Shown here: positions 10,451-45,938 of the stretch, one piece after another
How positions within the stretch are numbered: the stretch's first letter is position 1
Layout of the letters: every line of letters starts with the position of its first letter
Assembly (NCBI GenBank): GCA_023898365.1
Contig: CP060219.1
Span: forward strand, 334,688-398,687
DNA length: 64,000 nt
Direction of reading: 5' to 3'
Source: Candidatus Woesearchaeota archaeon
GTDB lineage: Archaea > Nanobdellota > Nanobdellia > Woesearchaeales > GCA-023898365
Notes under the pieces: model-generated
What the model was told of the DNA's origin: nothing
What the model saw: the letters and a program-made list of their open reading frames with translations, nothing else
Databases searched by the model: none
Translations under genes and position numbers: made by a program

Positions 10451-11623
10451 GTGTTACCATCGATAAGTATGTTACAACTGTTCAAGCCATTGGGAAAGAT
10501 GAATAAAGGCCATTTGCGGCTCATTGCAGAATATCTGCCACGAGAAGATGTGCAAGCAATCACCACACTTCTGAAAAAAAACCTGATTACAGTCACGTAC
10601 GAACAACTCAGAACAACAATCGTACGACCAAAAACCTATCCACAACTCCAAGCAAAACAATCAGACGGCAAACTTGAAAATAAACTTCGAAGCTACAACA
10701 CCTTCATAGAAGAGCGGTTCTATCAAAAAGTATTCAGAGAATTCTCAAGTGTCGCGTTTGAAAAAATAAATTACTTCTTCGAACGAACCGGATTTAAGAA
10801 AAAAGAAATAACAAACGCACTCATCCTGAGCTTGTTTGCGAAAAACCCAACGCACCTACTCCTTCTTGGCGATCCCGAACAAGGACAAAACGAACTACTC
10901 TCTTCAGTAAGCACCCTTTCACCAATTGGCGTAATTGCAGATCTTAAAGAAATTCCTGAATCGCACCTCTATATGAAAACGATCAACAAAAAACGAGAAC
11001 CTGGCTGCATTGCAGAAGCGCACGACGGCATTCTCATCCTCAAACATCTCCAATTCAAAAGCGATGCAGCAACTCACACGTTTGCAAAAGCATTAGATAC
11101 AGGAAAAACAACCTTCAAACGAGGTAAAGCAGAAGTGCACGTAACAAGCAATTTTTCGTGCATAGCCACCTCGTATCCAGATAGTTTTCATTTTGTTGGT
11201 AAACGCATCTCTTTCTTACATGGACAACTCATGTTCCCCCAAACCTTACTTCAAGACTTCTCACTTGTCTTCTTACTGCGAAGAAGTCCGCAACAAGAAT
11301 TCTTCAGAGAAAAAAATTTCTATTCCCTTAACATGCACACGCAAGACATTAATGATCCGGATATTGAATTTGTCAGAAAATACATTGAGTATGCACGAGA
11401 GCACACCATCGACTTTGCCCAGCTCTTAAAAGCAGAAGTAGCAGACTTTGTTGAAAGTCTTATGGGCAAAAAAGAATACTTTATAGAACCAAACAAAAAC
11501 ACTATCAAAGGCATCATTAACTTAGCAAAGGCACGAGCAGCACTTCATTTGCGCAAAGACGTCACCACAGACGATCTCGAATTTGTCTTCTCTATCGTTA
11601 AAGAAAGCGCGATTTCATTCTAA
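10451..11623 (+). CDS. Inactivated MCM-like AAA+ protein (MCM homolog with degenerate Walker A/B motifs and no canonical N-terminal domain)
   Basis: Positional equivalents of MCM motifs: HLLLLGDPEQGQNELL (Walker A lacking GK[ST]), AHDGILILKHLQF (Walker B lacking the DE), SCIATSYP (cf. AAANP), LQDFSLVFLL (cf. SRFDL arginine-finger region) and FVRKYIEYAREH (cf. the MCM LRKYIAYAR motif). Confidence 0.5.
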   Translation: MLPSISMLQLFKPLGKMNKGHLRLIAEYLPREDVQAITTLLKKNLITVTYEQLRTTIVRPKTYPQLQAKQSDGKLENKLRSYNTFIEERFYQKVFREFSSVAFEKINYFFERTGFKKKEITNALILSLFAKNPTHLLLLGDPEQGQNELLSSVSTLSPIGVIADLKEIPESHLYMKTINKKREPGCIAEAHDGILILKHLQFKSDAATHTFAKALDTGKTTFKRGKAEVHVTSNFSCIATSYPDSFHFVGKRISFLHGQLMFPQTLLQDFSLVFLLRRSPQQEFFREKNFYSLNMHTQDINDPDIEFVRKYIEYAREHTIDFAQLLKAEVADFVESLMGKKEYFIEPNKNTIKGIINLAKARAALHLRKDVTTDDLEFVFSIVKESAISF

Positions 11624-19304: not shown

Positions 19305-19641
19305 GTAAGTAAGCGCCAGAGCTAGCTTCGGATCATTCGTGATCTGCGGAAAGTCCACCCACTCATTACCGACCGCTTGTCGCAAGGCAAGAAGGGGAGA
19401 CTCTTGGCAACACAGACAAGAGAAAAAACCACCTGTTTTTTGGGATGATACGCAAAAGAACCGCCTTGGTAACAGACGGGAGTTAACTCGTTGACGACAA
19501 AACAGGAAAGGATGAGAACTGTGCCCTGGTTGAGTGCAAGTCTTTTTGACGCTTAGTCTACTGCTAGCAAGGTCATCGCAAAGAAAAGTACTTCTTTGTT
19601 TGGGCCAATAACAGAAGGTGGCTTATCTGGCGCATACTTAC
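19305..19641 (+). ncRNA. rnpB: RNase P RNA (rnpB), ~337 nt
   Basis: CR-I-like GGAAAGUCCACC at ~19341-19352 and CR-V-like ACAGAAGGUGGCUUAUC at 19611-19627. The P4 strands CCACC/GGUGG are complementary and covary relative to the CCGGG/CCCGG consensus. A 16-bp P1/P2 terminal pairing links 5' GUAAGUAAGCGCCAGA (19305-19320) with 3' UCUGGCGCAUACUUAC (19626-19641). The locus is GC-rich relative to its surroundings and has no ORF. Confidence 0.65.
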
Positions 19642-28772: not shown

Positions 28773-29498
28773 TTAACGAAGCGAGAAATACAACCGTCTA
28801 TTGTTTTTTCCTTTATTTTTTAATTCTTCAATGTTTATTAGGCCACATTCTTTTGTGCTATGAACATGAGTACCTCCATCTGCTTGCACATCAACACCTG
28901 TAATGTCGACAATGCGCAAGATAGAAACATTTGGAGGAAGCGCTCCTGCAAGTTTCACCATGCCTGGCATGCGCAAAACGTCTTCGCGAGGTTTAAAACT
29001 GATTTCTACCTTATGATCTTCTTGTAAGTAGCGATTAGCTTTTGCAACTAAGGCCTCCATTTGTTCGCGATCAAACGTATCAAGTGAATAATCCACTCGT
29101 GAAAGCGCGACATCAAGTTGATTGCCGGTGATAAGAACCTGCTCTTGGAAAAAAACTTGAGAGAGTACATGACTTGCCGTATGCATTTTCATAAGCGCAT
29201 AACGACGTGGCCAGTCCAGTTTGCAGCGAACGCGATCGCCAACATGTAATCCTTCTTTGTTTACTTCATGAGAAATTGCGCCATCAAATTTTCCTACAAA
29301 GGTAACGGAGTACATGTCTTTACCCAACCCATCTGGTCCAAGAACTTCAATTTGACCCTCATCATGCGGTTGACCACCTCCTTGAGGATAAAAAATAGTG
29401 TCCGCAAGAATAATGAATGTTCCCTTATTCACTGCAGTAACCGTAGTAATGAATTCCTTACAATAAGCATCTTTCGCATACAACGGATACGCATCCAT
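28773..29498 (-). CDS. alaX: Alanyl-tRNA editing protein AlaX (AlaX-M type, the trans-editing domain of AlaRS)
   Basis: The zinc-binding motifs HTASHVL and GGTHVHSTKECG are present. The probable start MDAYPLYAK is at 29498; the track ORF extends to 29669. Confidence 0.75.
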   Translation of the reverse strand: MDAYPLYAKDAYCKEFITTVTAVNKGTFIILADTIFYPQGGGQPHDEGQIEVLGPDGLGKDMYSVTFVGKFDGAISHEVNKEGLHVGDRVRCKLDWPRRYALMKMHTASHVLSQVFFQEQVLITGNQLDVALSRVDYSLDTFDREQMEALVAKANRYLQEDHKVEISFKPREDVLRMPGMVKLAGALPPNVSILRIVDITGVDVQADGGTHVHSTKECGLINIEELKNKGKNNRRLYFSLR

Positions 29499-29532
29499 AA
29501 TAAACTGAGTCAAGTCGTTTTCTTTAATAACG

Positions 29533-30210
29533 TTGTGGAAAACACATTTAAAGTTTGCTTCTTCAAAAGACCTATTGATGTCTGGAAAAGAACTTTCTCT
29601 TCTTGAGGCGCTTAAAGAAGTGCCCTGTCGCGTTGCTGACTTGCTTGCGACAAAGAACATCGTTCTCATCGGCTTATCTGGAGGTAGTGGTTCAGGAAAA
29701 GGATTTGTTGCAAGACATTTGAAAGAAAAAATTCCTGATTGCGCTGTTCTTTCTATGGATGATTATTATTTTGGCAAAGAAAAAATTACTGATGGGAATT
29801 TTGATAAACCAGAATCGCTCGATCTCAAACTTCTTGTTTCACAGTTGCAACAACTAAAACAGGGGAAAAACATTCAAAAGCCAGAATACGATTTCGTTAC
29901 CAGTTCAAGAAACGGAGAAGTGAATTACGCGCCAAGCAAAGTCATTCTTCTTGAGGGATTGTTTGCACTCATACCGGAAGTCGCTAAAGAACTTGATCTC
30001 AAACTTCTTGTTGTAGCAAAAGAACCACTTCGGTATGTGCGAAGATGTTCTCGAGATCAGAAAACCCGAGGGAGAAGCAAAGAAAGCATTGCGCTCCAAT
30101 GGAAGACCTTTGCAGAGCCCATGTTTCAACTCCATAAAACAAAACAAGAAGAACAAGCAGATATCATAATAAAAAATGAAAAAAAATTTGTGAAAGTAAC
30201 TAAAACTTAA
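29533..30210 (+). CDS. Uridine kinase-like P-loop nucleoside/nucleotide kinase
   Basis: The P-loop IVLIGLSGGSGSGKG is followed by LSMDDYY (cf. Udk ISQDSFY). An alternative start MSGKEL lies at 29578. Confidence 0.55.
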   Translation: MWKTHLKFASSKDLLMSGKELSLLEALKEVPCRVADLLATKNIVLIGLSGGSGSGKGFVARHLKEKIPDCAVLSMDDYYFGKEKITDGNFDKPESLDLKLLVSQLQQLKQGKNIQKPEYDFVTSSRNGEVNYAPSKVILLEGLFALIPEVAKELDLKLLVVAKEPLRYVRRCSRDQKTRGRSKESIALQWKTFAEPMFQLHKTKQEEQADIIIKNEKKFVKVTKT

Positions 30211-33357: not shown

Positions 33358-34344
33358 ATGTCAGAAAAACAGCAGCGTAGGGCAGCAAAAGTTCCTTTAC
33401 GAGAACTAAACACGTTTCGTGCAGTTTTTGCAAAAGATATTGATAAAAGTTGCCGTCATGAAAAACAAAAAGATTACATGCTTATCGCTCTGCATAGCAA
33501 ACACGATGTTAAAGGCTACGACATTATTGAATACGACTTTAGCAAAAAAGAACCAAGAGATTTTCGCTCAGCTATCACTAAAGTGCTGCCAACCTATAAC
33601 AAATTTGCATTTGATCAACTCGGCTCGATTGCCATCATCGAAGTTGACGAAGAATTTCGTGACAAAGAAGAACTCATCGCAAAGACCCTTCTTGAAACCA
33701 ATGCGACGGTGAAAACTGTTCTGCGCAAAGATTCGACACATGAAAATGAGTTTCGCACACAAACCTACAAGTTTTTGCAAGGCGTCGAAACAAAAATTGC
33801 GACGATCAAAGAAAATAATGTGACCCTTTCATTCGATGTTGAAGAAGTATATTTTTCTGTTCGTCTATCTTCAGAGCGAAAACGTGTTGCACAACAAGTC
33901 AAAGAAAATGAATCAGTGCTTGTTATGTTTAGCGGAGCAGGACCATACGCAATGGTGATAAAAAAAATGCATCCGTCTGCAACAGTGACTGCAGTTGAAA
34001 TGAATCCTGAAGGACACCGGTGGGCAGTGCACAACGCTAAAATAAATAAACTAGATATTACCTGTGTTAATGAAGATGTGGGCAAGCTCGCACTGGGAAA
34101 AACGTTTGACCGCATTGTCATGCCCGCTCCAAAAAACGCAGAAGATTTCTTAGAAAAAGCAAAAGAACACGCAACACAAGGAACCATTATTCATTTGTAC
34201 TGCTTTGGAGAAGAAAATGAATTAGCAGAAAAAAAGAAAAGAATAGAACACGTCTTTTCAAAAGTCACGTTTCTTGGAGACACGGTGTGCGGCCAACAAT
34301 CACCCCGCATCTATCGCTATTGTGTTGATTTTCGCGTCGATTGA
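33358..34344 (+). CDS. trm5: tRNA (guanine37-N1)-methyltransferase Trm5 / Taw2-like class I methyltransferase
   Basis: Motifs VLVMFSGAGPYAMV (cf. Trm5 MFAGVGPFA) and VTAVEMNPEG, with a Met-10-like fold arrangement. Confidence 0.75.
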   Translation: MSEKQQRRAAKVPLRELNTFRAVFAKDIDKSCRHEKQKDYMLIALHSKHDVKGYDIIEYDFSKKEPRDFRSAITKVLPTYNKFAFDQLGSIAIIEVDEEFRDKEELIAKTLLETNATVKTVLRKDSTHENEFRTQTYKFLQGVETKIATIKENNVTLSFDVEEVYFSVRLSSERKRVAQQVKENESVLVMFSGAGPYAMVIKKMHPSATVTAVEMNPEGHRWAVHNAKINKLDITCVNEDVGKLALGKTFDRIVMPAPKNAEDFLEKAKEHATQGTIIHLYCFGEENELAEKKKRIEHVFSKVTFLGDTVCGQQSPRIYRYCVDFRVD

Positions 34345-35903
34345 AAATCATCTAAATTGATCTGACCCTTACGTTTGTTCTTTTTAACCACTTCAGGCAT
34401 GGGCTCACCAACTTGCTCTTTAAGCACGCGAGCAGTTGCGGGACCAACTAAAGAAGAAAGAGAAGTCGGGTCGATCTTTTTGAGATCCCCCACTGTTTTA
34501 AGCCCGTTGCGAAACAAAATTCTTGCACGAACACGACCAACTTGCTTCAAACGAAGCAAAGCAAGAAGTTCCTCTTTAACCCCGTACGAAAGTCGAACCC
34601 GTAATCGTTCAATATGTTTAATTAGATGTTGACGCTTTGTTAACTGAGATAATTCTTTAAGTGCGTATAACAACCAATCAATGGTTTCTCGCTTAAAATG
34701 TAACTCACCAGGACGCAAACCGAACTCGTCAAGCAAAATATCCTCGCCGACTTCTTCAATCCAAGAAAGAAAAACAAGGGTTGTTTTCATCCCGTCAAGA
34801 AATTCCGCATACTCATGGTCGTACATACTTGGTGGTTGAAAAACGAACTCGTGATCATGCGCAACAATAGCTTTTTCGATCTGCTCAAGCTCCTTTGTGC
34901 GAACACGCAGTAATGGACGAATCTCCTTAGTTTTCATCAATGCTTGAAGTAACGAAAAAGGAGAAGGATCATCAGAAAGAAGCGAAAGCGCATCAAGAAG
35001 TAATTTTGCACTGTACGGATCAAGATAAAGTTCTGCAACGCGCTTACCTAAAGGAGTTGCTTCAAGTTTACGAGGAGAAGAAGAAAGAAGTGAGGAAGCG
35101 GATTGGAAACCTTTTGCGTCCGAAGATGCTGAAGCAACCAAAAAACCCCACAATTCGAGTTCACCAATAATTTTTTCAATTTTAAGAGCCACCGCCTCAT
35201 CATCACCGTATTGATCAGCATAGAACGTTTCCGAAAAAAAATCTTTTACTTCCTCTTGCGAAAACACCATACCTGAAGCAACCAAACTCAACACATACAT
35301 ACGAAGCACCGGTTCAACAGCCAACTTAGAATCAATATCCTCCGGAACACCAAGTAAATACTTATCATGCAAGAGTTCTTTTTGATCAGAAGAATCTGCA
35401 AGCAAAATAGCCTCGCCAAAATCATCCTTACCGGGACGACCAGCTCGACCCATCATCTGCAACGCCTCAAGCACAGGAATAAAATATAACCCCCGCGCAC
35501 CATACCTGCGCAAACTCTTAATCACCACACGAAACGCAGGAAGGTTAAGACCAGCAGCGAGCGTTGGCGTAGCACAAATCACCTTAATACGTTTATCCTT
35601 GAAAGCAGACTCCACAAGAGAACGCTGAGCGCTATGAAGACCTGAATGGTGGAACGCGACGCCACGATGCACCACCTTAGACAAACGCTTACATTGCTTT
35701 GTAGGAGAAGAAACAGCCTTAAGGATGTTCTCAGAAAGCTCCTCACAAGAAGCAAGAAGATCAAGTTGGCTTGCGATCGCATCAGCCTGCGCCTCAGCAG
35801 AAGCCTTCGTTGGAGCAAACACCAAGATCTGTTTATCATTCGCAATAGTGTCAAGCGCCAAATCAACCAATTGATCACCAGATCGTTCAGTGAGAGAAAC
35901 CAT
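34317..35903 (-). CDS. Hel308/Hjm-type Ski2-like helicase containing domains 2-5 only (RecA2, winged helix, ratchet, HhH). The RecA1 ATP-binding domain is absent, so this is a candidate split gene or an N-terminally truncated gene.
   Basis: The ORF begins exactly at the domain-2 boundary (DKQILVFAPTKASAEAQA). It has motif IV/V VICATPTLAAGLNLPAF and motif VI QMMGRAGRPGKD. No Walker A, DExH or SAT motif appears in any frame upstream; nt 35904-36078 is non-coding repeat DNA followed by tRNA genes. Confidence 0.7.
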   Translation of the reverse strand: MVSLTERSGDQLVDLALDTIANDKQILVFAPTKASAEAQADAIASQLDLLASCEELSENILKAVSSPTKQCKRLSKVVHRGVAFHHSGLHSAQRSLVESAFKDKRIKVICATPTLAAGLNLPAFRVVIKSLRRYGARGLYFIPVLEALQMMGRAGRPGKDDFGEAILLADSSDQKELLHDKYLLGVPEDIDSKLAVEPVLRMYVLSLVASGMVFSQEEVKDFFSETFYADQYGDDEAVALKIEKIIGELELWGFLVASASSDAKGFQSASSLLSSSPRKLEATPLGKRVAELYLDPYSAKLLLDALSLLSDDPSPFSLLQALMKTKEIRPLLRVRTKELEQIEKAIVAHDHEFVFQPPSMYDHEYAEFLDGMKTTLVFLSWIEEVGEDILLDEFGLRPGELHFKRETIDWLLYALKELSQLTKRQHLIKHIERLRVRLSYGVKEELLALLRLKQVGRVRARILFRNGLKTVGDLKKIDPTSLSSLVGPATARVLKEQVGEPMPEVVKKNKRKGQINLDDFQSTRKSTQ

Positions 35904-35948
35904 TTACTTGCAGAAGTGAAGCTTTGTTTTAAACGTTTTGTTAAAGAA

Positions 35949-36093
35949 GCAGACAACAGAAAACAGAAAAAAAAAACATGAGCCCGGGGGGATATAGGAA
36001 CGCCAACAACAATTTGGCGTTTGTGAGCCTGCATACGCTAACACGTAGCAGACAACAGAAAACAGAAAAAAAAAAACATGAGCCCGGGGGGAT
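35949..36093. repeat. Two direct copies (35949-35993 and 36048-36093, 45 and 46 nt) of the tRNA-Ile 3'-terminal 15 nt plus its 30-nt poly-T trailer, separated by 54 nt. This is an att-like tandem duplication of a tRNA 3' end.
   Basis: The string gcagacaacagaaaacagaaaaaaaaa(a)catgagcccggggggat occurs twice. The second copy is continuous with the intact tRNA-Ile. Confidence 0.8.
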
Positions 36094-36152
36094 TTGAACC
36101 CCCGACCACACGATTATCAGTCGTGCACTCCACCAGACTAAGCTACGGGCTC
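36079..36152 (-). tRNA. tRNA-Ile (anticodon GAT)
   Basis: Folded manually. Acceptor GAGCCCG/CGGGCUC, anticodon stem CACGA/UCGUG with loop CUGAUAA, T-arm GGGGG-UUCAAAU-CCCCC and discriminator A. CCA is not encoded. Confidence 0.85.
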
Positions 36153-36162
36153 GAATAAAAAA

Positions 36163-36237
36163 TGGCGCCTCCGACCAGGATCGAACTGGTGACCTTGCGG
36201 TTAACAGCCGCACGCTCCACCGCTAAGCTACGGAGGC
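36163..36237 (-). tRNA. tRNA-Asn (anticodon GTT), with 3' CCA encoded
   Basis: Acceptor GCCUCCG/CGGAGGC, anticodon stem UGCGG/CCGCA with loop CUGUUAA, T-arm ACCAG-UUCGAUC-CUGGU, discriminator G then CCA. It lies 10 nt upstream of tRNA-Ile. Confidence 0.85.
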
Positions 36238-36302: not shown

Positions 36303-37061
36303 TCAAGTATCAGTAGTTTCCAACAATCCAAGCATTTGCACAACTTGTTCCAATGAAACAACATTACGTGGATCCACCCCGTGTACCTGTTCATACCACA
36401 ATGAAGCAACATTGCTTCTTGGAGATTGTATGACTAATTCTCTAATTGCATGGATCCTTCCTGAAGATTTCCTCGCAGTCATTGCAGAAACTGCCGTTTC
36501 AAAACAATACTCGTTGTAACCACCTCCAAAAAAAAGCTCATTATCTTTGAAAAGATATAGTTCTTCAGGGTGAAGAGGTAAACCAGAATCATATCTTGTA
36601 AAAATCACTTGATCAATCAAACCAACTTCAACTAGAATACTTGTTGCTGCAGCATAATGATGAGGGGTTTCTAGTGCAACAACTCCAAAAGGTGATCGAT
36701 TAGATCGTAAGCTGAGAAAAGCTAAGAGTGCATCCAGATATGCTTCCGCTTCGCGTCGAATTTCATCAGTCTCAATATAATGCATGTGACTAAGATGTAA
36801 ATAAAAAGGATGTACAAGCATCACCATTTGGTCTCCTTCTTGAGGCTTTTGATGATCTCTTGCGTGTTCTTGACAGGCGATCAGCAATTTTTTAAAATCT
36901 CCTCTTTGATAACAGTCATCATCCTTAGATTCTCGATTTCTCAAGTTAACTTCGATATGGGAAGTCCAACCCGTGAAATTACGATTCAAAACGGCCGAGC
37001 TAGCATTATTTGTTGCAGGTAAAGCAGTTCTTAAGTTGGGATCGTAAAAATTTGACATCAA
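36303..37061 (-). CDS. Hypothetical protein (252 aa) located between tRNA-Asn and tRNA-Thr
   Basis: Uninterrupted ORF. His-rich segment HPFYLHLSHMHYIETDE. No family recognised. Confidence 0.45.
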   Translation of the reverse strand: MMSNFYDPNLRTALPATNNASSAVLNRNFTGWTSHIEVNLRNRESKDDDCYQRGDFKKLLIACQEHARDHQKPQEGDQMVMLVHPFYLHLSHMHYIETDEIRREAEAYLDALLAFLSLRSNRSPFGVVALETPHHYAAATSILVEVGLIDQVIFTRYDSGLPLHPEELYLFKDNELFFGGGYNEYCFETAVSAMTARKSSGRIHAIRELVIQSPRSNVASLWYEQVHGVDPRNVVSLEQVVQMLGLLETTDT

Positions 37062-37144
37062 ATCTGGAAACTATAAAGAATTTATTAAAGTTTCTTTATT
37101 TATTACTTTCAAGTAGTTTCGAATAGGGGTTGAGAAAAAGGAAA

Positions 37145-37226
37145 AGCCTCCGGTGAGATGAAACAAAGCAAAGCTTTGTGGATCTCACCTCAAACTAAAA
37201 AACAAGCCTCCGGTGAGATTTGAACG
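37145..37226. repeat. Two extra partial copies of the tRNA-Thr 3' end downstream of the intact gene: 37145-37160 (16 nt, followed by an inverted repeat that recreates the T-stem GGUGAGAU/AUCUCACC) and 37205-37226 (the 22 nt of the T-loop through the 3' end)
   Basis: agcctccggtgagat occurs at 37145, 37206 and 37307, the last being the real tRNA 3' end. Confidence 0.75.
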
Positions 37227-37306
37227 TTTGAGAGCGAAAGTGAGCAAACCACGGAAAAGTACGGAAGGGCTTTGACAGTGTCACGAAGGGAGTTCAAGAA
37301 ATTAAG

Positions 37307-37378
37307 AGCCTCCGGTGAGATTTGAACTCACGACCGCCTGATTACAAGTCAGGCGCACTACCACTATGCTACGGAGGC
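37307..37378 (-). tRNA. tRNA-Thr (anticodon TGT)
   Basis: Acceptor GCCUCCG/CGGAGGC, anticodon stem CCUGA/UCAGG with loop CUUGUAA, T-arm GUGAG-UUCAAAU-CUCAC and discriminator U. Confidence 0.85.
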
Positions 37379-37418: not shown

Positions 37419-37844
37419 CTATAGGAGCCAAACAATCGTGGCGATAAGAGCTCCGAGCACGCCACCAACGAAGACTTCTAAGAAAGTGTGGCCTGGAACA
37501 ACAGAAACTGGTTTCAGTTTGGCTTTTTCTGCAAGTTTATTTAAGAGCACTGCTTGATCACCAACGCTTTTTCGCATGCGAAAGGAATCTACGAGGACGA
37601 TGAGAGCGAAGATGAACGTGACAACGAGCAGATTGCCAAACCCATCATAATAAAACACGGCAAACGTCAAAGAAGAAACAAGGGATGCGTGCATGGAAGG
37701 CATGCCTCCGGTGGTGAGAAGCTCGATGAGAACGATTTTTGGAAAGGATCTGTTTTTCATTCCGTGATGGATCGTCGTAACAATTTTACCTAAGAGTGTT
37801 ATCACCCAGGTCAATAGCAACGTTATCACAATTCGTTCAATCAT
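37419..37844 (-). CDS. Divergent PAP2 / DUF212-family membrane protein (acid phosphatase / vanadium haloperoxidase-related)
   Basis: 141 aa with ~4 TM helices. Motifs SMHASLVSSLTFAV, LVDSFRMRKSVGDQA and VPGHTFLEVFVGGVLG match the DUF212 pattern. Confidence 0.6.
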   Translation of the reverse strand: MIERIVITLLLTWVITLLGKIVTTIHHGMKNRSFPKIVLIELLTTGGMPSMHASLVSSLTFAVFYYDGFGNLLVVTFIFALIVLVDSFRMRKSVGDQAVLLNKLAEKAKLKPVSVVPGHTFLEVFVGGVLGALIATIVWLL

Positions 37845-38800
37845 ACTACTCGCCTAAATCTTGTGTTTAAGAGCCCCCATTCAATAAAAAGCATGAACAG
37901 AGCAAATAACATCAAATAAAAGGACAATTCCCTCTTTAATAAAGTTTGTGTGCTTTCTTGAGGAATGGTAGCGATGGCTTCTTGCACGTCCTCAAGCGTT
38001 TCTAGGTGGAAATAGGATCCGTCAGTAATGTTTGCTAACTCTGTTAGCGCATCATCCTGATAGACAGCAGACACATTATAGTACTCCGGCAAATAACCAA
38101 CAAGACCTTCGTCCGTGCCAATACCAATGCTGTGAATGCGCACTTGATTTTGCGTCGCGTATGCCCCGCTTTGTTTGATAGAATCTGAAAGAAAGGGACC
38201 GTACGTGTTTCCCCCATCAGTAATAAGGATGATGATCTTTGCTTTTTCTGGATTGTTTAACAAAAGGTTCGTCGCAGAAATAATGGTGCCAGGAATGTCT
38301 GTTCCTGACGCCTTTGCGACCTTTATCTCATTGATCGCATCTTTTGTTGCGAATTTATTTGTTTCATAGACTGATCTGACAAGCGGCACCCCTGAGAAAC
38401 TGATCACCGAAAAAGTTGTCTCGAACGCGAACGCATCAACAAGAGAGTTTGAAAACGATTTGGCAACTTCAAGACGTGAGGGTGGCAAATCTTCAGCAGA
38501 CATAGATGCAGAATTATCAATAGCGATAACAACATCTGATTCGCTTGCTTCCGCTGTGTACCAAAACACTGGTGAAGAAACTGATAAGATTATAGCAATA
38601 AAAATCACGACGCGAATCAAGAGTTGGAAGGAGTTTTTTGTTAGCTGATGACTGCCAGAGACTCGTCGTAAGGTTTCAAAATTTGCAAAGCGCATACCTC
38701 GAAATCGTGCATGCTTTAAGGAAAGATAATGGGAGAAGACTAAGAAAGGGATTGCTAAAAGGAGCCAGAGATATACCGGTTCAGTAAATGATATTTGCAT
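37841..38800 (-). CDS. vWA-domain membrane protein, BatA-like
   Basis: Two N-terminal TM helices followed by a vWA domain with MIDAS motif VVIAIDNSASMSAED and ILITDGGNTYGP. It overlaps its neighbour by 4 nt. Confidence 0.75.
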   Translation of the reverse strand: MQISFTEPVYLWLLLAIPFLVFSHYLSLKHARFRGMRFANFETLRRVSGSHQLTKNSFQLLIRVVIFIAIILSVSSPVFWYTAEASESDVVIAIDNSASMSAEDLPPSRLEVAKSFSNSLVDAFAFETTFSVISFSGVPLVRSVYETNKFATKDAINEIKVAKASGTDIPGTIISATNLLLNNPEKAKIIILITDGGNTYGPFLSDSIKQSGAYATQNQVRIHSIGIGTDEGLVGYLPEYYNVSAVYQDDALTELANITDGSYFHLETLEDVQEAIATIPQESTQTLLKRELSFYLMLFALFMLFIEWGLLNTRFRRVV

Positions 38801-38811
38801 AAGTCACCTAG

Positions 38812-39711
38812 TTATGTTCTTGGTTTAAATAACCGTTTACGAAAAAAAGTAATTAGTTTGTCAAAATATTCTTCGTTTGTTTCTAAGACAATGAAATCTC
38901 CTTGCGATCCTGTGAAAATACTGTTAAGTGAGTTTTCGTCCTTTTTGACAAGTTCTTCATATTTTTTTGAAAAATCTTTTGTGTCAATATACATAGCTTC
39001 GTTTGTGGAAGGATTTTCGACCATGAGTTGACCGATGTCCTTTGGTAAATGTCGGTCTCTTGGATCTCGCACGCCAATACCAATAACAGAAAAAAATTGG
39101 CTAAAATTTCTAATGTAATTCGTCCAGTTTGGCTCAAGCCCAATAAAATCTGAAATGAGAATAAGAATACCGCGCGGATTAAGAAATGCAAGCGTTTCTT
39201 TTAGAGGACGCACAATACTTTTTGGACCACCATAATTACGTACGTCATGAAGTTCGTGTTTGATGCCTTGCAAAATCATCGGCCCGATGTTTGGCTCTAA
39301 TCGAACGCGCAAACCATCACTGAACATGCCAAAGCCAACAGCATCGCCACTGCGTAAGATCGCATCAGCAAGGACGTATGCAACTTCTGCGGCATATTCT
39401 ACCTTTAATTTCTGTGTGGAAGAAAACAACATTGAATCTGAAACATCAAGCAAAATAAATACGCGGAAATTACGATAAACCTCAAACTCTTTTACAAGAG
39501 GTTTATTTGATCGAAGCGAAACCTTCCAATCAATAAGCGACGCATCATCTCCAAATTGGTACGCGCGGTATCCTGCAAACTCCATACCTTGGCCTTTAAA
39601 TGATGTGGACCAATCACCTTCAAGTGCATCAATAAGCATATCTCTATTTGCAGCAATTGTTGCATGTTTTTTAGCAACTTCAAGATCAAGTTCGATATGT
39701 CGGAGTTCCAC
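38812..39711 (-). CDS. DUF58-family protein, the MoxR-associated partner
   Basis: 299 aa. FAGYRAYQFGDDASLIDWKV and ILLDVSDSM are typical of DUF58 proteins encoded next to MoxR. Confidence 0.75.
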   Translation of the reverse strand: MELRHIELDLEVAKKHATIAANRDMLIDALEGDWSTSFKGQGMEFAGYRAYQFGDDASLIDWKVSLRSNKPLVKEFEVYRNFRVFILLDVSDSMLFSSTQKLKVEYAAEVAYVLADAILRSGDAVGFGMFSDGLRVRLEPNIGPMILQGIKHELHDVRNYGGPKSIVRPLKETLAFLNPRGILILISDFIGLEPNWTNYIRNFSQFFSVIGIGVRDPRDRHLPKDIGQLMVENPSTNEAMYIDTKDFSKKYEELVKKDENSLNSIFTGSQGDFIVLETNEEYFDKLITFFRKRLFKPRT

Positions 39712-39712
39712 T

Positions 39713-40699
39713 TTACATCACAGGAACTTTCTTTAAGATCTCATCAATAATCTCATCGGAGGAAATGTTTTCAGCTTGTCCTTCGAAGTTGAGGATGATG
39801 CGATGCCTAAGAACAGGTTTTGCCACGGCTTTAATATCAACGGGAGAAACAACGGTGTTGCCACTCATAAGCGCATGCGCCTTGGCTGAAATAAAGAGTG
39901 CGATCGATGAACGAGGACTAGCGCCGTAGTTAATGTATTTGCCAAAGTCAATACCATACTCTTTTGCGTGCCTTGTCGCAGTAACAATGCGAATAATATA
40001 CTGTTGCATTTTTTTGCTCAATACAATGTTGTTAACAATTCGCTGTGCTTCGACAATTTCTTCAGCGCTAAAAACTGGCTGTAAATTAAATGAGTCAAAG
40101 CTCTTTGTCGTCATATTTGTTTCAAGTATCTCGACTTCTTCAGTTGCAGTTGGATAGGACATTTGAAGTTTAAACAAAAAACGATCAAGCTGCGCTTCAG
40201 GAAGCTTGTACGTTCCAAGCTGCTCTACGGGATTTTGCGTTGCCATAACAAAGAATGGTTTAGGTAATTGAAACGTCTCTTTTCCGATCGTCACTTGACG
40301 CTCCTGCATACCTTCTAGCAAAGCTGATTGAACTTTAGGAGGACTTCGATTGATTTCATCGCCAAGAACAAAATTTGCAAAAATAGGTCCTTTAACTGTG
40401 TAAAAGCCTTTTCCTTCTTCGTATGTTGTAATGCCTACAATATCAGAAGGAAGCAAGTCCGGCGTGAATTGAATACGAGAAAATGACGAACCAGTAATAG
40501 TCGAAAGCGTACGAATAATAAGTGTTTTTCCAACGCCTGGAATACCTTCAAGCAAAACATGACCATCGCAAAGCAACGCTTGAAGAAGAAAGTCAATGAT
40601 GTCCTTCTGACCGATAACGATCTTACCCATCTCTTTTTTTACAATAGAGAATCGCTTCCCAAGACTAGCGACATGTCTCGCCAACTCACCCTCGTCCAT
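39713..40699 (-). CDS. moxR: MoxR-family AAA+ ATPase
   Basis: Walker A GHVLLEGIPGVGKT, Walker B, and an overall match to the MoxR/RavA subfamily. 328 aa. Confidence 0.9.
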   Translation of the reverse strand: MDEGELARHVASLGKRFSIVKKEMGKIVIGQKDIIDFLLQALLCDGHVLLEGIPGVGKTLIIRTLSTITGSSFSRIQFTPDLLPSDIVGITTYEEGKGFYTVKGPIFANFVLGDEINRSPPKVQSALLEGMQERQVTIGKETFQLPKPFFVMATQNPVEQLGTYKLPEAQLDRFLFKLQMSYPTATEEVEILETNMTTKSFDSFNLQPVFSAEEIVEAQRIVNNIVLSKKMQQYIIRIVTATRHAKEYGIDFGKYINYGASPRSSIALFISAKAHALMSGNTVVSPVDIKAVAKPVLRHRIILNFEGQAENISSDEIIDEILKKVPVM

Positions 40700-42136: not shown

Positions 42137-45100
42137 CTAATTATATTTTCTGTTTCTCCAGCGATCACGCACGTAGCTGACAATCATCATAAGGATCGTT
42201 ATTGCAATAACCCCTCCTACTGCAAGAACAACCCGTTCAGAAAGTAAATCGGTGAGGGTCACCATACTAAAAAGACCTCTTGGAGAATCAAGATTTATTT
42301 CATTCTTCTCATTATCAATTAGATACTTACATCCATTTATGATGTTATCAAGCTCGGTTAATGCTTGAGAGATAGGAATACTTGATGCTCTTCGTTCAAG
42401 CTCGGTAAGCAGTTCGTTCATTTCAGCACAGGCAGGGTTTGAAGCGAGAAGGTCTCGAGCAAACGTAACTTTTACTTTGTATGCTTCTTCATCGTCAGTT
42501 GATTTCTCAAGAGAGTTGATATGAATTGTTGCGGAGTCGCTTGCAACGGGATCGTCTGTTGTGACATTCACGACGATTTCATACGTGCCACTCGTGCGAT
42601 AATTGCCAAGAGTAAGTAACGTAGATGCGTTCTGCCCAATACCAAGTGAAGCAACGTAATCCTCACTGAATGTTACCGTAACATTTTCAGAGCCGGCAAT
42701 TGCGTTAAAATTAATTCCGTAGAGCGAATCATCCCAGGTGTTCACAACAGTGATGGGAACCGTGACCGTATCATTTTCATAAACGGCAACTACATCGCTA
42801 ACCACTATTGAGAACGGTTCAGGAGAATCAACTTCTTCCTGGAAAGGCACAGTAACTGTTGTGGTTACTGTTCTTGTTCCGCCAGGATTGTTTGATGTTT
42901 GCACATCAATTACAGGATCGGGAACATTAGTAATGACAATGCGAACCGTATTCGAAGAAACATATGCTCCTGCGTCATCAGTTGCGTTGAAGACCACATC
43001 ACAGTACCCTAATGATGTTGGAGTAATGGTTAAAGACGTATCTGTTATGCTCAGTGTTGCAACAGAGCAAGATTCGCCGTAGGCTAAAGAGAAGTTTAAG
43101 GTTGACGATTCCGCACCATCAAGCAAACCATTTGCGCTGGTATCATCATCTGCATCGTAAAAACGCTGAACGCTGTTACGATATATAAAATAATTTGCAA
43201 GTGCAGTTGTTTGTGAAACAGAGAAGTTATCAAGAGGACCATAAAATACAGGAGGACGATTAAGATTGGCAATAGTAATATTCCAACTAAAGTTTGCCGT
43301 GCTATAATACGCATCAGTTGCACTTACGACAATATCATGTGTTCCCGCGGTTGAAAAGTTAAATGATCTGGTGTAATTTGAATTGACCCCCGGGTCGACA
43401 CCAGGCAAATTAAGTTTCTGCACACCATCAACATACCATCTGTAAGAAATATTATTATTTATCTGGGTCGTGTCGTTTGTCGCGAGCGCATCAAACGTAA
43501 CAGTTGCGTTTTCTGAAAAATTGATGGTGATGTTTGTCAAACCACCAACGACAAACCATGAAGTGTTTAGTGAGGTATTTGACATGAAAGGAGTCACTTG
43601 GGTAAATTGAGGGGGAACAGATTCGTTGTAAATGGTGATGTTAACAAGCTGCCAATCGACCAACCCACCCGCATCAGTAACTGAAGCGTTTGCTTCGTAC
43701 ACCCCATACTCTCCTGATTGAGGAACAAAAGAAACAGTCACTTCATTGACATCCGTTTTTGAGTAAGCAAAGCCCGTTGGTGATGCCCCTGTAAAAGCAA
43801 AGTTAAAGGTCAGATTATCATCAAGAACAAAAAAATCAATATCAGTTGCGTAAAAAACATTTTCATAGAGAACATCTTCAACAAGAATGCCAAAATTGAT
43901 GGCATCAGACACATTGTCTTGATTATTGTCCCATATTGGCGCATCGTTTGCATTGCCTATTTCAAAGGAAAGAACTTCATAATCGCACACATTTGCAAGA
44001 TCACAGACCGAAACATTCAATGTTTTATTTCCAACTTGCGCATTTGTTGGTGTAAAATTCATCCAATAAAGCGTCATGTTACCTTGCACCAGACCAAGGT
44101 TTGACGCGTTAAATCCTGCTTCGTATGCAAACGACCAAGTAAGGTTGTCTCCGTCGCGATCAATTGCGGTAAAGTATGATGAACCAAGAATGCCTTGCGT
44201 ATAATTAACAAGAGAAACAGTCATTACAGGCACCGAATTGTTACGAATAGTGATGTTTGCAATAGCAGTTGTTATAGCCTCACCATCATCAACATACACT
44301 TCGAAGAGGTAATTTCCAATTAGACCTGGACCGACTGTAAAATTAAATTCTCCCGATGTGCTATTAATAGTGAAATTAGAATGGTTTGTTGAAAACGTTA
44401 AGGTATCGCCTGCATATGTTAGTTGGTCAACATCAGAATAATTAAGTGGTGAGGAAAACGTTGCATTCACATACCACGTAAAATTTGAAAGATTGTATAT
44501 GCCGTCGGTTAGTTCGTAAATTACCGGAGCATCATTTAGGTTTAAAATGTTAAACGTGACATTATTCTCCGTATAGCCTCCATGATCATCAGTTACTCGA
44601 ATGCGGACGTTTCGGCAGGCGACGTGGTCATTTGTCATAATTTGGTTGATCACGATAGAAGCGTTCGAACCGTTCACTAAGGTGGTGAATGACCAAGGAT
44701 TTGAAAGGGAGCACGTGCGGGGCGTGATAGTGAACGTGATATTGTCTGCAACATCTGCATCGGAAGCGTTGATATAAAACGTGAAGAGATCTGACTGATT
44801 AGTATCAGGAGTGACTAGGTTCGATGTGATCTGCGGCAATTGATTAACAGCTGAAACGTTAATGGTAAAAGAGGTTTCAACTGGCGGCAATAAACTTGCA
44901 TTGTCGCTAATGTTCATATACACCGTCCACAATCCTCTGTCAGCAAATTGAGGCGCGTTGCTTGGACGGTTAAAGGTAACATACCCTTCCGTGTTTGATG
45001 ACTGAACAAAAATAATTGAAGCAAGATCAGTGCTCATGTTAAAGGTGAACGGTTCGTCTCCTTCCTCATCAAACCCAGAAATTGAATAATTAAACGTGAT

Positions 45101-45775
45101 GTCTTCTGTCGCCTGTTGATTCGTTAAATTTGGTAAAAAATATGCTTGATCATTTACTTCTGCAACTGTGTAGGTTACGGTAATTCCTAAGAGCGAGGGA
45201 GTGTCATCTTTTACATAAAAAGTAAAATTGGTGTCACCAATATGTGCTGCTAAAGGTATGCACGTGACTAATCCCGCCCCAGAAATATCGCAGTAGTTTG
45301 TTCCGTCCGTTTCTAAAAAGGTCAGCGCATCACCATCGGGATCAAAAGCTGAAAGCTGTGTTTGGAAAACGACATCTTCTGTTAAGAGCTCATCAGTTGC
45401 ATTTGGAAGGTTAGGAAGGGAATTATTAATGGTGAACAATTTTCCTGCGGTGGCGCTTGTCGAACCATTCCACAACGTCACATTACAACTCCATCGTTCA
45501 CCACGCTGCGCAATATAGGAAAGTAACGTCGTGCGATTGTCAGTGAACGGAATGTTTGCAACTGTCGTGTAAGGAGAACTGCCATTATACCAAGTCACGT
45601 TTTGTTGTACGGTGTCAATTGAGGGTTTCCAAGAACAGATAATGTTGTCTCTTGTTGTAGGAGTTGACGGCGAAATGCTCGGCAGCGTAGAAAAATTTAC
45701 TGCAAGCGCAAATGCTATGATGAAGAGGGCAAGCGAAGTCACAACAAGTGTTTGGAAGAGGTCAACTCGTTTCAT
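42137..45775 (-). CDS. Giant cell-surface glycoprotein-like protein (~1213 aa from MKRVD) with a signal peptide, a sequon-rich beta-rich ectodomain and a C-terminal TM anchor
   Basis: Signal peptide MKRVDLFQTLVVTSLALFIIAFALAVNF, dozens of NxS/T sequons and the C-terminal TM helix VVLAVGGVIAITILMMIVSYV followed by a basic tail. The track ORF starts further upstream at 45841 and overlaps the RHH gene. Confidence 0.7.
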   Translation of the reverse strand: MKRVDLFQTLVVTSLALFIIAFALAVNFSTLPSISPSTPTTRDNIICSWKPSIDTVQQNVTWYNGSSPYTTVANIPFTDNRTTLLSYIAQRGERWSCNVTLWNGSTSATAGKLFTINNSLPNLPNATDELLTEDVVFQTQLSAFDPDGDALTFLETDGTNYCDISGAGLVTCIPLAAHIGDTNFTFYVKDDTPSLLGITVTYTVAEVNDQAYFLPNLTNQQATEDITFNYSISGFDEEGDEPFTFNMSTDLASIIFVQSSNTEGYVTFNRPSNAPQFADRGLWTVYMNISDNASLLPPVETSFTINVSAVNQLPQITSNLVTPDTNQSDLFTFYINASDADVADNITFTITPRTCSLSNPWSFTTLVNGSNASIVINQIMTNDHVACRNVRIRVTDDHGGYTENNVTFNILNLNDAPVIYELTDGIYNLSNFTWYVNATFSSPLNYSDVDQLTYAGDTLTFSTNHSNFTINSTSGEFNFTVGPGLIGNYLFEVYVDDGEAITTAIANITIRNNSVPVMTVSLVNYTQGILGSSYFTAIDRDGDNLTWSFAYEAGFNASNLGLVQGNMTLYWMNFTPTNAQVGNKTLNVSVCDLANVCDYEVLSFEIGNANDAPIWDNNQDNVSDAINFGILVEDVLYENVFYATDIDFFVLDDNLTFNFAFTGASPTGFAYSKTDVNEVTVSFVPQSGEYGVYEANASVTDAGGLVDWQLVNITIYNESVPPQFTQVTPFMSNTSLNTSWFVVGGLTNITINFSENATVTFDALATNDTTQINNNISYRWYVDGVQKLNLPGVDPGVNSNYTRSFNFSTAGTHDIVVSATDAYYSTANFSWNITIANLNRPPVFYGPLDNFSVSQTTALANYFIYRNSVQRFYDADDDTSANGLLDGAESSTLNFSLAYGESCSVATLSITDTSLTITPTSLGYCDVVFNATDDAGAYVSSNTVRIVITNVPDPVIDVQTSNNPGGTRTVTTTVTVPFQEEVDSPEPFSIVVSDVVAVYENDTVTVPITVVNTWDDSLYGINFNAIAGSENVTVTFSEDYVASLGIGQNASTLLTLGNYRTSGTYEIVVNVTTDDPVASDSATIHINSLEKSTDDEEAYKVKVTFARDLLASNPACAEMNELLTELERRASSIPISQALTELDNIINGCKYLIDNEKNEINLDSPRGLFSMVTLTDLLSERVVLAVGGVIAITILMMIVSYVRDRWRNRKYN

Positions 45776-45938
45776 GTGAAAGTAACCGCTTAATTGTTTT
45801 ATTTTTCTGAACATAGGTCTTTGTCTTTGCTGCGAGCTCATCTAAGACCAGTTCTTTAATCGTTTGCTGAGAAATAACTGATGCTAAACGCAAGCGTTGA
45901 TGCAAGTCGTCAGGTAAAGCAATATTCAGTCGTCCCAT
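45762..45938 (-). CDS. Small ribbon-helix-helix (CopG/Arc/MetJ-like) protein, 58 aa. Unannotated in the ORF track.
   Basis: Manual translation: MGRLNIALPDDLHQRLRLASVISQQTIKELVLDELAAKTKTYVQKNKTIKRLLSHETS. The N-terminal beta-strand plus helix (RLNIALPDDLHQRL) is the classic RHH signature. Its stop overlaps the surface-protein ATG. Confidence 0.55.
   Translation of the reverse strand: MGRLNIALPDDLHQRLRLASVISQQTIKELVLDELAAKTKTYVQKNKTIKRLLSHETS

What the first reader, a model, noticed from the sequence alone, without database searches (positions are those of the whole stretch)
34317..36078. Hel308 helicase lacking its RecA1 domain: a split gene or a truncation at a tRNA-linked rearrangement
The ORF begins precisely at the domain-1/domain-2 boundary of Hel308/Hjm and encodes intact motifs IV-VI, the winged helix, the ratchet and the HhH domains. 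No Walker A, DExH or SAT motif exists in any upstream frame; the upstream 175 bp are repeat DNA and tRNA genes. A clean break at a domain boundary is the hallmark of split genes reported in Nanoarchaeota and other DPANN lineages, where the N-terminal half would be encoded elsewhere. Alternatively the N-terminus was lost in the same event that duplicated the adjacent tRNA-Ile 3' end.
Basis: partly seen in the sequence, partly recalled or inferred. Interest (0 to 1): 0.6.

Follow-up and report, generated by a model that had tools for sequence, protein, structure and literature searches.

The report
Split Hel308 helicase: C-terminal subunit gene
This gene encodes only the rear two-thirds of the DNA-repair helicase Hel308, and it is intact rather than broken, because thousands of Woesearchaeota-type archaea encode a separate ~220-residue ATP-binding piece and a ~520-residue piece like this one, although both pieces have not yet been shown in one genome.

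Summary
The ORF at 34317-35903 (minus strand, 528 aa) is real. It matches Hel308/Hjm from about residue 215 to the end: RecA2 motifs IV-VI, winged helix, ratchet and HhH domains. No RecA1 sequence exists anywhere in the 64-kb window.

It is not a local truncation. More than 5,000 homologues from Woesearchaeota/Nanoarchaeia start at the same position. They lie in unrelated genomic contexts, and a TATA-like box sits about 27 nt before the ATG.

A matching family of stand-alone ~220-aa RecA1 proteins exists in the same taxa. These carry motifs Q, I, Ia, Ib, II and III and end at ...WRPVKLxKGxYxxGxIEF. The two families tile full-length Hel308 without gap, overlap or intein. The break lies 18-20 residues inside RecA2, after its first beta-hairpin, so a non-covalent two-subunit helicase is the likely product.

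The halves were never found within 10 kb of each other. The C-half often follows tRNA-Asn/tRNA-Ile, as it does here. The N-half often precedes ftsY and scpA.

The 46-nt tRNA-Ile 3'-end duplication is real but specific to this lineage and unrelated to the split.

Not shown: the N-half of this genome, and both halves together in any one genome.

This is a new member of the known class of DPANN split genes. Interest is moderate.

The parts
34317..35903 (-). Complete CDS (528 aa plus stop) for the C-terminal subunit of a split Hel308/Hjm helicase. It is identical to NCBI USN45855.1 (H6502_01845, Candidatus Woesearchaeota archaeon).
35418..35903 (-). RecA2 motor domain (aa 1-162) lacking its first beta-hairpin. 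It carries motifs IV, IVa, V and VI, including the motif VI arginines R153 and R156.
   Evidence: Pfam Helicase_C; alignment to Hjm; invariant columns
35142..35417 (-). Winged-helix domain (aa 163-254).
   Evidence: Pfam HTH_61 at 22.9 bits, just below its cut-off; aligned to Hjm domain 3
34581..34955 (-). Ratchet domain, Hel308 domain 4 (aa 317-441).
   Evidence: Pfam PF21280, E 1e-27
34416..34562 (-). Helix-hairpin-helix domain 5 (aa 448-496), followed by a basic C-terminal tail.
   Evidence: Pfam HHH_5 at 23 bits; aligned to Hjm residues 621-689
35927..35933 (-). TATA-like box TTTAAAA, ending 24 nt before the ATG. It is the presumed archaeal promoter of a leaderless or near-leaderless transcript.
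   Evidence: sequence; in 81 homologous loci, TATA-like hexamers pile up at -30..-26, with 78 pattern starts against 16 or fewer in any other 5-nt bin
35948..35993 (-). Second copy of a 46-nt direct repeat (15-nt 3' end of tRNA-Ile plus its 31-nt trailer). It is specific to this lineage and is not the cause of the missing RecA1.
   Evidence: absent from relatives with the same tRNA-gene arrangement
36047..36093 (-). First copy of the direct repeat, overlapping the true 3' end of tRNA-Ile. A 53-nt spacer separates the two copies.
36079..36152 (-). tRNA-Ile(GAU), on the same strand and directly upstream of the C-half gene. This is conserved synteny.
36163..36237 (-). tRNA-Asn(GUU), part of the conserved tRNA-Asn / tRNA-Ile / C-half arrangement.

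Best explanation
The ORF is the intact C-terminal subunit of a Hel308/Hjm DNA helicase whose gene underwent fission early in the Woesearchaeota (class Nanoarchaeia) lineage.

In this lineage the helicase is encoded by two unlinked genes:
- An N-half of about 220 aa. It contains RecA1 (Q motif, Walker A, Ia, Ib, DEIH, SAT) plus the first beta-hairpin of RecA2, and ends ...WRPVKLxKGxYxxGxIEF.
- A C-half of about 520 aa, which is this ORF. It contains the rest of RecA2 (motifs IV, IVa, V, VI), the winged helix, the ratchet domain and the HhH domain.

Each gene has its own promoter, start and stop.

Inferred mechanism. The two polypeptides associate non-covalently. The C-terminal hairpin of the N-half completes the RecA2 fold of the C-half. 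The ATP site then forms between RecA1 of one chain and the motif VI arginines of the other. The result is a normal 3'-5' Hel308 translocase for replication-fork repair and control of recombination.

Shown: the conserved C-half family, the conserved N-half family, their exact tiling of the full-length protein, intact catalytic residues in both, the absence of an intein, and separate conserved neighbourhoods.

Inferred: that this genome has an N-half elsewhere on its 1.13-Mb chromosome, that the halves bind each other, and that the hairpin mediates assembly.
For: 1. Conservation. The 120 best homologues of the ORF are all 503-548 aa, with Helicase_C and Helicase_dom4_arc but no DEAD domain, and come from Woesearchaeota/Nanoarchaeota MAGs. 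A family profile finds 5,402 proteins at E <= 1e-50 among 8,000 scored candidates.

2. Same start, different contexts. C-halves begin 15-26 residues before motif IV. Their neighbourhoods differ.

3. Own promoter. TATA-like hexamers peak at -30..-26 in 81 loci.

4. The partner family exists. A profile of full-length N-termini returns mainly 219-229-aa proteins with a DEAD domain only, from the same taxa, and these are annotated as complete genes. Of 80 metagenome loci, 60 are stand-alone N-halves with a stop codon, median length 220 aa.

5. Tiling. N-halves end 18-20 residues after the R of RPV. Added to the C-half leader this gives 33-46 residues, against 42-45 between RPV and motif IV in five of the six full-length relatives examined (55 in P0140). 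On NCBIfam NF002654, the N-half covers positions 1-218 (282.6 bits) and this ORF covers 224-718 (416.8 bits). Their sum is close to the 695.9 bits of the full-length relative P0145.

6. Constraint on catalytic residues. Among N-halves, PTASGKT is present in 100%, DE[IVL]H in 99% and SAT in 100%. FHHAGL is present in 100% of C-halves, and the motif VI residues Q149, G152, R153, G155, R156 and P157 are invariant.

7. Structure. AF2 models are confident for both halves. The C-half has pLDDT 83.5, and its best PDB matches are Hjm and Hel308. The N-half has pLDDT 88.6 and shows a RecA1 core plus a terminal hairpin at residues 209-218.

8. Domain boundary. Hjm domain 2 begins at residue 198 (PMC2636818), so the hairpin belongs to RecA2.
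Against: - The N-half of this very genome was not seen. Only 64 kb of 1.13 Mb is available, and the window contains none.
- No genome or contig was shown to carry both halves. Matching contig lengths across searches gave no pair.
- The halves were never within 10 kb of each other, in ~90 C-half loci or in the stand-alone N-half loci. There is therefore no operon-type link to support partnership.
- In a rough neighbour-joining tree the split forms are not cleanly monophyletic. 31 of 37 fall in one bipartition together with 3 full-length proteins, and 6 fall outside.
- Physical association and the role of the hairpin are inference only.
Confidence: 0.8

Rival explanations
1. Recent local truncation or pseudogene. 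A full-length Hel308 gene lost its 5' third in this lineage through a rearrangement at the tRNA-Ile locus, the same event that duplicated the tRNA 3' end.
For: A 46-nt duplication of the tRNA-Ile 3' end plus trailer lies directly upstream of the ORF. tRNA genes are known recombination and integration sites (general knowledge).
Against: - Thousands of homologues have the same N-terminus, in unrelated contexts.
- All family-invariant residues are retained.
- The gene has its own TATA box at the canonical distance.
- Relatives with the same tRNA-Asn/tRNA-Ile/C-half arrangement lack the duplication. Without the 100-nt duplication, the distance from tRNA to ATG (75 nt) is in the range seen in those relatives (56-137 nt).
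- No RecA1 remnant is present in any frame.
Confidence: 0.02
2. Assembly or sequencing artefact: a frameshift or mis-join hides a contiguous RecA1 domain.
For: The upstream repeat and the homopolymer run are assembly-prone. An independent short-read contig breaks inside the repeat.
Against: - An independent Logan assembly encodes the identical 528-aa protein.
- No RecA1-like sequence occurs in any frame of the window.
- The same architecture appears in hundreds of independent assemblies.
Confidence: 0.01
3. Autonomous RecA1-less protein. The C-half works without a dedicated N-half, either as an ATP-independent DNA-binding or strand-annealing factor, or with the RecA1 of another helicase. The 220-aa family would then have a separate role.
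For: - The halves are never linked.
- Co-occurrence is not demonstrated.
- Hel308/HELQ has an annealing activity besides translocation (PMC10484726 and PMC13623763, from their abstracts).
- The N- and C-halves have different conserved neighbourhoods.
Against: - The motif VI arginine residues, motif V and motif IVa are invariant in the C-halves. Their known role is ATP sensing across the RecA1-RecA2 cleft (established SF2 knowledge).
- The N-half is specifically Hel308-type and stops exactly where the C-half starts.
- The C-half lacks the first strands of its own RecA2 domain.
Confidence: 0.1
4. Protein trans-splicing. The halves are joined covalently by a split intein, as in the split DNA polymerase B of Nanoarchaeum equitans.
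For: Inteins are common in this helicase family. Inserts of 440-530 aa with Intein_splicing and LAGLIDADG domains sit at motifs V and VI in both split and unsplit forms.
Against: The N-half ends, and the C-half begins, with extein sequence only. Together they account for the full-length protein, leaving no room for the ~100-aa and ~35-aa intein pieces. No intein domain is found in this ORF or in N-half P0355.
Confidence: 0.02

Closest known systems
Archaeal Hel308/Hjm (Ski2-like SF2 DNA helicase; PDB 2zj2, 2p6r, 2va8; NCBIfam NF002654 / NF040935)
   Same: The same domains 2-5 occur in the same order. Motifs IV, IVa, V and VI, the ratchet domain and the HhH domain are conserved. Alignment to Hjm has E 1e-82, with 44-48% identity across RecA2 for the family. 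The predicted fold matches Hjm and Hel308.
   Different: Characterised Hel308 proteins are single chains of ~700 aa. Here RecA1 and the first ~18-20 residues of RecA2 are missing from the polypeptide. In relatives they are supplied by a separate ~220-aa gene. Each half scores below the NCBIfam equivalog cut-off (416.8 and 282.6 bits against 887).
Split protein genes of Nanoarchaeota: N. equitans and Nst1 (reverse gyrase, Lhr 'large helicase-related protein' NEQ003/409, AlaRS, topoisomerase I and others; PMC3655853 Table 1)
   Same: An information-processing enzyme of a DPANN archaeon is encoded by two dispersed genes that together tile the unsplit homologue. Lhr and reverse gyrase are also SF2-helicase-containing proteins.
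   Different: - Hel308 is not on the published lists.
- The split seen here occurs across hundreds of species-level genomes labelled Woesearchaeota or Nanoarchaeia, not just one or two reduced genomes.
- The break falls inside a RecA-like domain rather than between functional modules, as it does between the helicase and topoisomerase parts of reverse gyrase.
Split DNA polymerase B of N. equitans (joined by a split intein)
   Same: Two dispersed genes encode one enzyme. Inteins are frequent in the Hel308 family too.
   Different: There are no intein halves at the Hel308 junction, so the association must be non-covalent.

Membership tests
Hel308/Hjm helicase (single-chain family as defined by NCBIfam NF002654/NF040935 and PDB 2zj2/2p6r) | RecA1 domain with motifs Q, I (Walker A), Ia, Ib, II (DExH) and III (SAT) on the same polypeptide | tested here: not met
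   Pfam finds no DEAD/ResIII domain. The alignment to Hjm starts at residue 228. No RecA1 sequence is present in the window.
Hel308/Hjm helicase (single-chain family as defined by NCBIfam NF002654/NF040935 and PDB 2zj2/2p6r) | RecA2 domain with motifs IV, IVa (F/YHHAGL), V and VI | tested here: met
   KQILVF, FHHSGL, TPTLAAGLNLPA and QMMGRAGRP are all present. The first beta-hairpin of the domain (Hjm residues 198-215) is absent, however.
Hel308/Hjm helicase (single-chain family as defined by NCBIfam NF002654/NF040935 and PDB 2zj2/2p6r) | Winged-helix, ratchet (domain 4) and HhH (domain 5) accessory domains | tested here: met
   PF21280 hits at E 1e-27. HTH_61 and HHH_5 fall just below their Pfam cut-offs, but both regions align to Hjm. 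Foldseek's top hits are Hjm and Hel308.
Hel308/Hjm helicase (single-chain family as defined by NCBIfam NF002654/NF040935 and PDB 2zj2/2p6r) | Whole-protein score above the curated equivalog cut-off | tested here: not met
   NF002654 scores 416.8 bits against a cut-off of 887, covering profile positions 224-718 of 739 only.
Hel308/Hjm helicase (single-chain family as defined by NCBIfam NF002654/NF040935 and PDB 2zj2/2p6r) | DNA-dependent ATPase and 3'-5' helicase activity | not testable with these tools
   This needs biochemistry on the reconstituted halves.
DPANN-type split (two-gene) protein | Each piece is a complete ORF with its own start, stop and promoter | tested here: met
   The C-half has an ATG, a stop and a TATA box near -27. 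N-halves in relatives are complete ~220-aa ORFs with stop codons.
DPANN-type split (two-gene) protein | The pieces tile the unsplit homologue without overlap or gap | tested here: met
   Junction arithmetic. NCBIfam positions 1-218 and 224-718.
DPANN-type split (two-gene) protein | The split state is conserved and under purifying selection across a lineage | tested here: met
DPANN-type split (two-gene) protein | Both pieces are encoded in the same genome | not testable with these tools
   Only 64 kb of this genome is available. Collection scans return at most 10 kb around a hit. Matching contig lengths across lists found no shared contig.
Split-intein trans-spliced protein | Intein N- and C-fragments flank the junction | tested here: not met
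   There is no extra sequence at the junction and no intein domain in this ORF or in N-half P0355.
Pseudogene / recent truncation | Lineage-specific, with decayed remnants nearby and relaxed constraint | tested here: not met
   The family has thousands of members with the same start and invariant catalytic residues, and no remnants are present.

The most novel reading that the evidence does not exclude
The fission is a single ancient event at the root of a large Woesearchaeota-type clade, and it was tied to a tRNA locus. Since then the C-half has sat directly downstream of tRNA-Asn and tRNA-Ile(GAU). Loci that retain this arrangement are scattered over the whole split clade.

On this reading the event produced an obligate heterodimeric SF2 helicase whose RecA2 fold is completed in trans by a beta-hairpin from the other subunit. 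This would be a natural case of fragment complementation inside a motor domain. It would also let the cell dose or regulate the ATPase half and the DNA-handling half independently. For example, free C-half might act as an ATP-independent DNA binder or annealase.
Probability: 0.2. Interest if true: 0.6.

Novelty: new member of a known kind. Interest (0 to 1): 0.45.

Why it matters
Hel308/HELQ is a conserved replication-fork repair and recombination-control helicase, studied until now as a single chain. A natural version made of two unlinked genes, broken inside RecA2 and apparently maintained in hundreds of species-level genomes, has several consequences.

- It would show that an SF2 motor tolerates being assembled from two chains.
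- It offers a ready-made system for asking what each half does alone: ATPase, annealing, DNA binding.
- It adds a widespread case to the short list of DPANN split genes, extending them beyond the hyper-reduced Nanoarchaeum lineage.
- It matters for annotation. Pipelines call the halves 'hypothetical protein', 'helicase-related protein' or 'DEAD/DEAH box helicase'. Surveys that require both helicase domains in one protein would score these archaea as lacking Hel308.

Tried and rejected
- **RecA1 in the window.** A regex for Walker A plus DExH/D in ORFs of 100 aa or more, tblastn with Hjm/Afu/Sso N-termini, a Hel308 N-terminal profile, a profile of stand-alone N-halves and tblastn with 94 N-halves found nothing. 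The only marginal hit (E 5e-4) lies inside the C-half itself and reflects RecA1/RecA2 paralogy.
- **N-half next to the C-half in relatives.** None was found in ~90 loci covering 1.2 Mb.
- **N-half of this genome.** It is not retrievable. The lineage has no close relatives (best C-half identity 51%), so no query would rank its N-half among the 120 listed hits.
- **Same-contig or same-genome pairing.**
  - Look-ups of N-halves P0379 and P0355 and of C-halves P0044 and P0025 gave no pairing.
  - Cluster accessions gave no pairing.
  - A degenerate DNA pattern from the Saanich Inlet C-half L060 found no match in metagenome contigs.
  - Tetranucleotide and ortholog comparison of N- and C-loci showed no same-genus pair.
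- **Which half stayed in place.** I tried to infer this from the contexts of full-length genes. Seven full-length loci share neither the tRNA-Ile context nor the ftsY/scpA context.
- **Literature.** No paper in the searchable library mentions a split Hel308.
- **Rejected readings.** Pseudogene, assembly artefact and split-intein trans-splicing; see the rival explanations.
Full report
**The observation**

The ORF at 34317-35903 on the minus strand encodes 528 aa from an ATG.
- It aligns over residues 14-490 to Pyrococcus furiosus Hjm residues 228-689 (E 1.4e-82), and equally well to Archaeoglobus and Sulfolobus Hel308.
- Pfam finds Helicase_C, a winged-helix (HTH_61), the archaeal helicase domain 4 (ratchet, E 1e-27) and HHH_5, but no DEAD or ResIII domain.
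- An AlphaFold model built on 30 homologues is confident (pLDDT 83.5). Its best PDB matches are Hjm and Hel308.
- Upstream lie a 175-bp spacer, then tRNA-Ile(GAU) at 36079-36152 and tRNA-Asn(GUU) at 36163-36237, both on the same strand.
- The spacer contains a 46/47-nt direct repeat (35948-35993 and 36047-36093). It consists of the last 15 nt of tRNA-Ile plus its 31-nt trailer, and a 53-nt spacer separates the copies.
- No RecA1-like sequence occurs in any frame of the 64-kb window.

Hjm domain 2 begins at residue 198 (PMC2636818), while the ORF begins at about Hjm residue 215. The first ~18-20 residues of RecA2 are missing as well.

**Not a local accident**

- The identical protein is NCBI USN45855.1 (H6502_01845) from a Candidatus Woesearchaeota MAG, on a 1,131,583-bp contig. 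An independent Logan assembly encodes the same 528 aa.
- An archaeal RNase P RNA in the window fits this origin.
- The 120 best homologues are all 503-548 aa, lack a DEAD domain and come from Woesearchaeota/Nanoarchaeota MAGs.
A family profile found 5,402 proteins at E <= 1e-50 among 8,000 scored candidates.
- All begin 15-26 residues before motif IV. Their neighbourhoods are otherwise unrelated.
- In 81 loci, TATA-like hexamers pile up at -30..-26 from the ATG: 78 pattern starts, against 16 or fewer in any other 5-nt bin. In the window the box is TTTAAAA at 35927-35933. This indicates an independent, probably leaderless transcript.
- The window protein keeps every invariant column of the family, including FHH-GL (motif IVa), TP-LA-G (motif V) and Q--GR-GRP (motif VI).

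**The missing half exists as a separate gene family**

- In a search of 1.84 billion cluster representatives, the ORF's relatives fall into three groups: ~500-560-aa C-only proteins, ~700-750-aa full-length Hel308, and ~950-1250-aa forms carrying inserts.
- I took the N-terminal ~230 residues of six full-length relatives as a profile.
- That profile returned mainly 219-229-aa proteins with only a DEAD domain. They are named 'DEAD/DEAH box helicase' from Woesearchaeota or Nanoarchaeota and are annotated as complete genes.
- Among 94 of them, PTASGKT and SAT are present in 100%, DE[IVL]H in 99% and RPVxL in 98%.
- In a metagenome scan, 60 of 80 loci held a stand-alone N-half with a stop codon (median 220 aa). 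Seven held ordinary full-length genes.

**The halves are complementary**

- N-halves end 18-20 residues after the R of RPV (...WRPVKLHKGIYLDGEIEF-stop). C-halves start 15-26 residues before KQxxxF.
- The sum is 33-46 residues. The same interval is 42-45 residues in five of the six full-length relatives examined and 55 in the sixth.
- On NCBIfam NF002654 (739 positions), N-half P0355 covers positions 1-218 (282.6 bits) and the window ORF covers 224-718 (416.8 bits).
- Together these come close to the 695.9 bits of the full-length relative P0145.
- There is no room for intein fragments, and none is detected.
- The N-half model (pLDDT 88.6) shows a RecA1 core followed by a terminal beta-hairpin at residues 209-218.
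- The C-half model starts with the helix that precedes the motif IV strand.

**Mechanism**

Shown: there are two conserved gene families, with complementary boundaries and all ATPase and translocation motifs intact.

Inferred:
- The products form a non-covalent heterodimer.
- The C-terminal hairpin of the N-half belongs structurally to RecA2 and supplies its first strands. It would complete the RecA2 fold of the C-half and so hold the subunits together.
- The ATP site forms between the Walker A and DEIH motifs of one chain and the motif VI arginines of the other. Invariance of those arginines makes little sense without a RecA1 partner. This rests on established SF2 helicase knowledge.
- The complex would then act like Hel308 in fork repair and recombination control.

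**Genomic arrangement**

- The halves are never close. No RecA1 hit occurs in ~90 C-half neighbourhoods covering 1.2 Mb. No C-half lies within 10 kb of a stand-alone N-half.
- Each half has its own recurrent context. ftsY lies within 5 kb downstream of the N-half in 11 of 27 informative loci, and scpA lies 2.5-5 kb away in 15 of 27.
- The C-half is preceded by tRNA-Ile and/or tRNA-Asn in eight other genomes as well as in the window.
  - L062, L067 and L029 have the same tRNA-Asn/tRNA-Ile pair on the same strand.
  - L002 has tRNA-Ile only.
  - L041, L083 and L021 have one or both of these tRNAs on the opposite strand.
  - The call for L032 was ambiguous.
- These loci are scattered over the whole split clade in a neighbour-joining tree. 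Their common ancestor spans 84 of 89 leaves, and their pairwise identity is 44-59%. The linkage is therefore probably ancestral.
It is not evidence of a recent truncation.
- The 46-nt duplication is absent from the other tRNA-linked loci. Removing it brings the tRNA-to-ATG distance (75 nt) into the range seen in those relatives (56-137 nt).

**Limits**

- I could not retrieve the N-half of this genome.
- The rough tree of cluster representatives is not clean. 31 of 37 split forms group together with three full-length proteins among them, and six lie outside.
- One fission followed by occasional re-fusion, several independent fissions, and tree error all remain possible.

**Comparison with what is known**

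- The published split proteins of N. equitans and Nst1 include reverse gyrase, Lhr and AlaRS, but not Hel308 (PMC3655853; PMC6349945).
- Recent Hel308/Ski2 surveys and reviews do not mention a split (PMC10946056; PMC13623763).
- No paper in the searchable library does so either.
- The ORF works like Hel308 domains 2-5. It fails the single-chain membership criteria, because it has no RecA1 and scores below the equivalog cut-off.
- It fits the class of 'DPANN split gene'. I rate it a new member of a known kind.
- Two features are notable: the break inside a RecA-like domain, and conservation across a very large clade.

**Verdict**

- The split-gene interpretation is supported at family level. 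The truncation alternative is rejected.
- Confidence is 0.8 that this is the C-terminal subunit of a two-gene Hel308.
- Interest is 0.45.

Noticed in passing
window 37137-37159, 37197-37219 and 37299-37321 (minus strand, downstream of tRNA-Thr 37306-37378): The 3' end of tRNA-Thr(UGU), ...ATCTCACCGGAGGCT, is repeated twice more within 170 nt downstream of the gene. The partial copies are 21 nt and 15 nt long. This is the same kind of 3'-end 'stutter' seen at tRNA-Ile. The copies may be scars of integration and excision at tRNA att sites.
   Followed up: partly
L062, L067, L029, L002, L041, L083, L021 (upstream of the C-half gene); window 36079-36237: The tRNA-Asn(GUU)/tRNA-Ile(GAU) pair, or one of the two, lies directly upstream of the Hel308 C-half in at least seven other divergent Woesearchaeota-type genomes. 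The tRNA-Ile of L067 carries one intron. That of L029 carries two: 13 nt after the anticodon and 18 nt in the T-arm region.
   Followed up: yes
proteins P0123, P0126, P0128, P0142, P0146 (split type) and P0153, P0161, P0165 and others (full-length): Inserts of 440-530 aa with Intein_splicing and LAGLIDADG domains sit at two fixed sites of RecA2: motif V (about residue 119) and motif VI (about residue 154). They occur in both split and unsplit Hel308. P0219 carries both inserts. A few proteins (P0169, P0202, P0212) show inserts in RecA1.
   Followed up: partly
N-half loci L085, L093 and 27 metagenome loci among L098-L177: The stand-alone RecA1 N-half gene has its own recurrent neighbourhood. 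ftsY (SRP receptor) lies within 5 kb downstream in 11 of 27 loci, and scpA lies 2.5-5 kb downstream in 15 of 27. A DUF4013 gene sits between them in marine representatives.
   Followed up: partly
window 33358-34344 (+) versus 34317-35903 (-): The Trm5/TYW2-type tRNA methyltransferase gene and the Hel308 C-half gene converge, and their 3' ends overlap by 28 nt.
   Followed up: no
window 36303-37061 (-): A 252-aa ORF between tRNA-Thr and tRNA-Asn has no Pfam match. It has no Walker A motif and is not a RecA1 candidate.
   Followed up: partly
window 19309-19637 (+): Archaeal RNase P RNA (Rfam RF00373, 113.5 bits). This confirms an archaeal origin for the window.
   Followed up: no
window 10451-11623 (+): A 390-aa ORF gives only a weak, partial match to the MCM P-loop domain (34 bits, profile positions 57-211 of 224). 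That is far shorter than a normal MCM. It could be a divergent AAA+ protein or another fragmented replication gene.
   Followed up: no
window 28773-29669 (-): A 298-aa ORF matches only the C-terminal end of the alanyl-tRNA synthetase core plus the tRNA_SAD domain. It is probably a free-standing AlaX editing protein. AlaRS is split in N. equitans, so this is worth a check.
   Followed up: no
window 52549-63987 (-), 42137-45841 (-), 1363-8350 (-), 11736-15997 (-): A giant 3,812-aa ORF was not scanned against Pfam. Several other ORFs of 590-1,234 aa were scanned and have no Pfam match.
   Followed up: no
window 37841-40699 (-) and 8527-10330 (-): One cluster encodes a MoxR AAA+ ATPase, a DUF58 protein and a BatA/VWA protein. 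Another encodes two peroxiredoxins, a desulfoferrodoxin and a Fur-family regulator.
   Followed up: no
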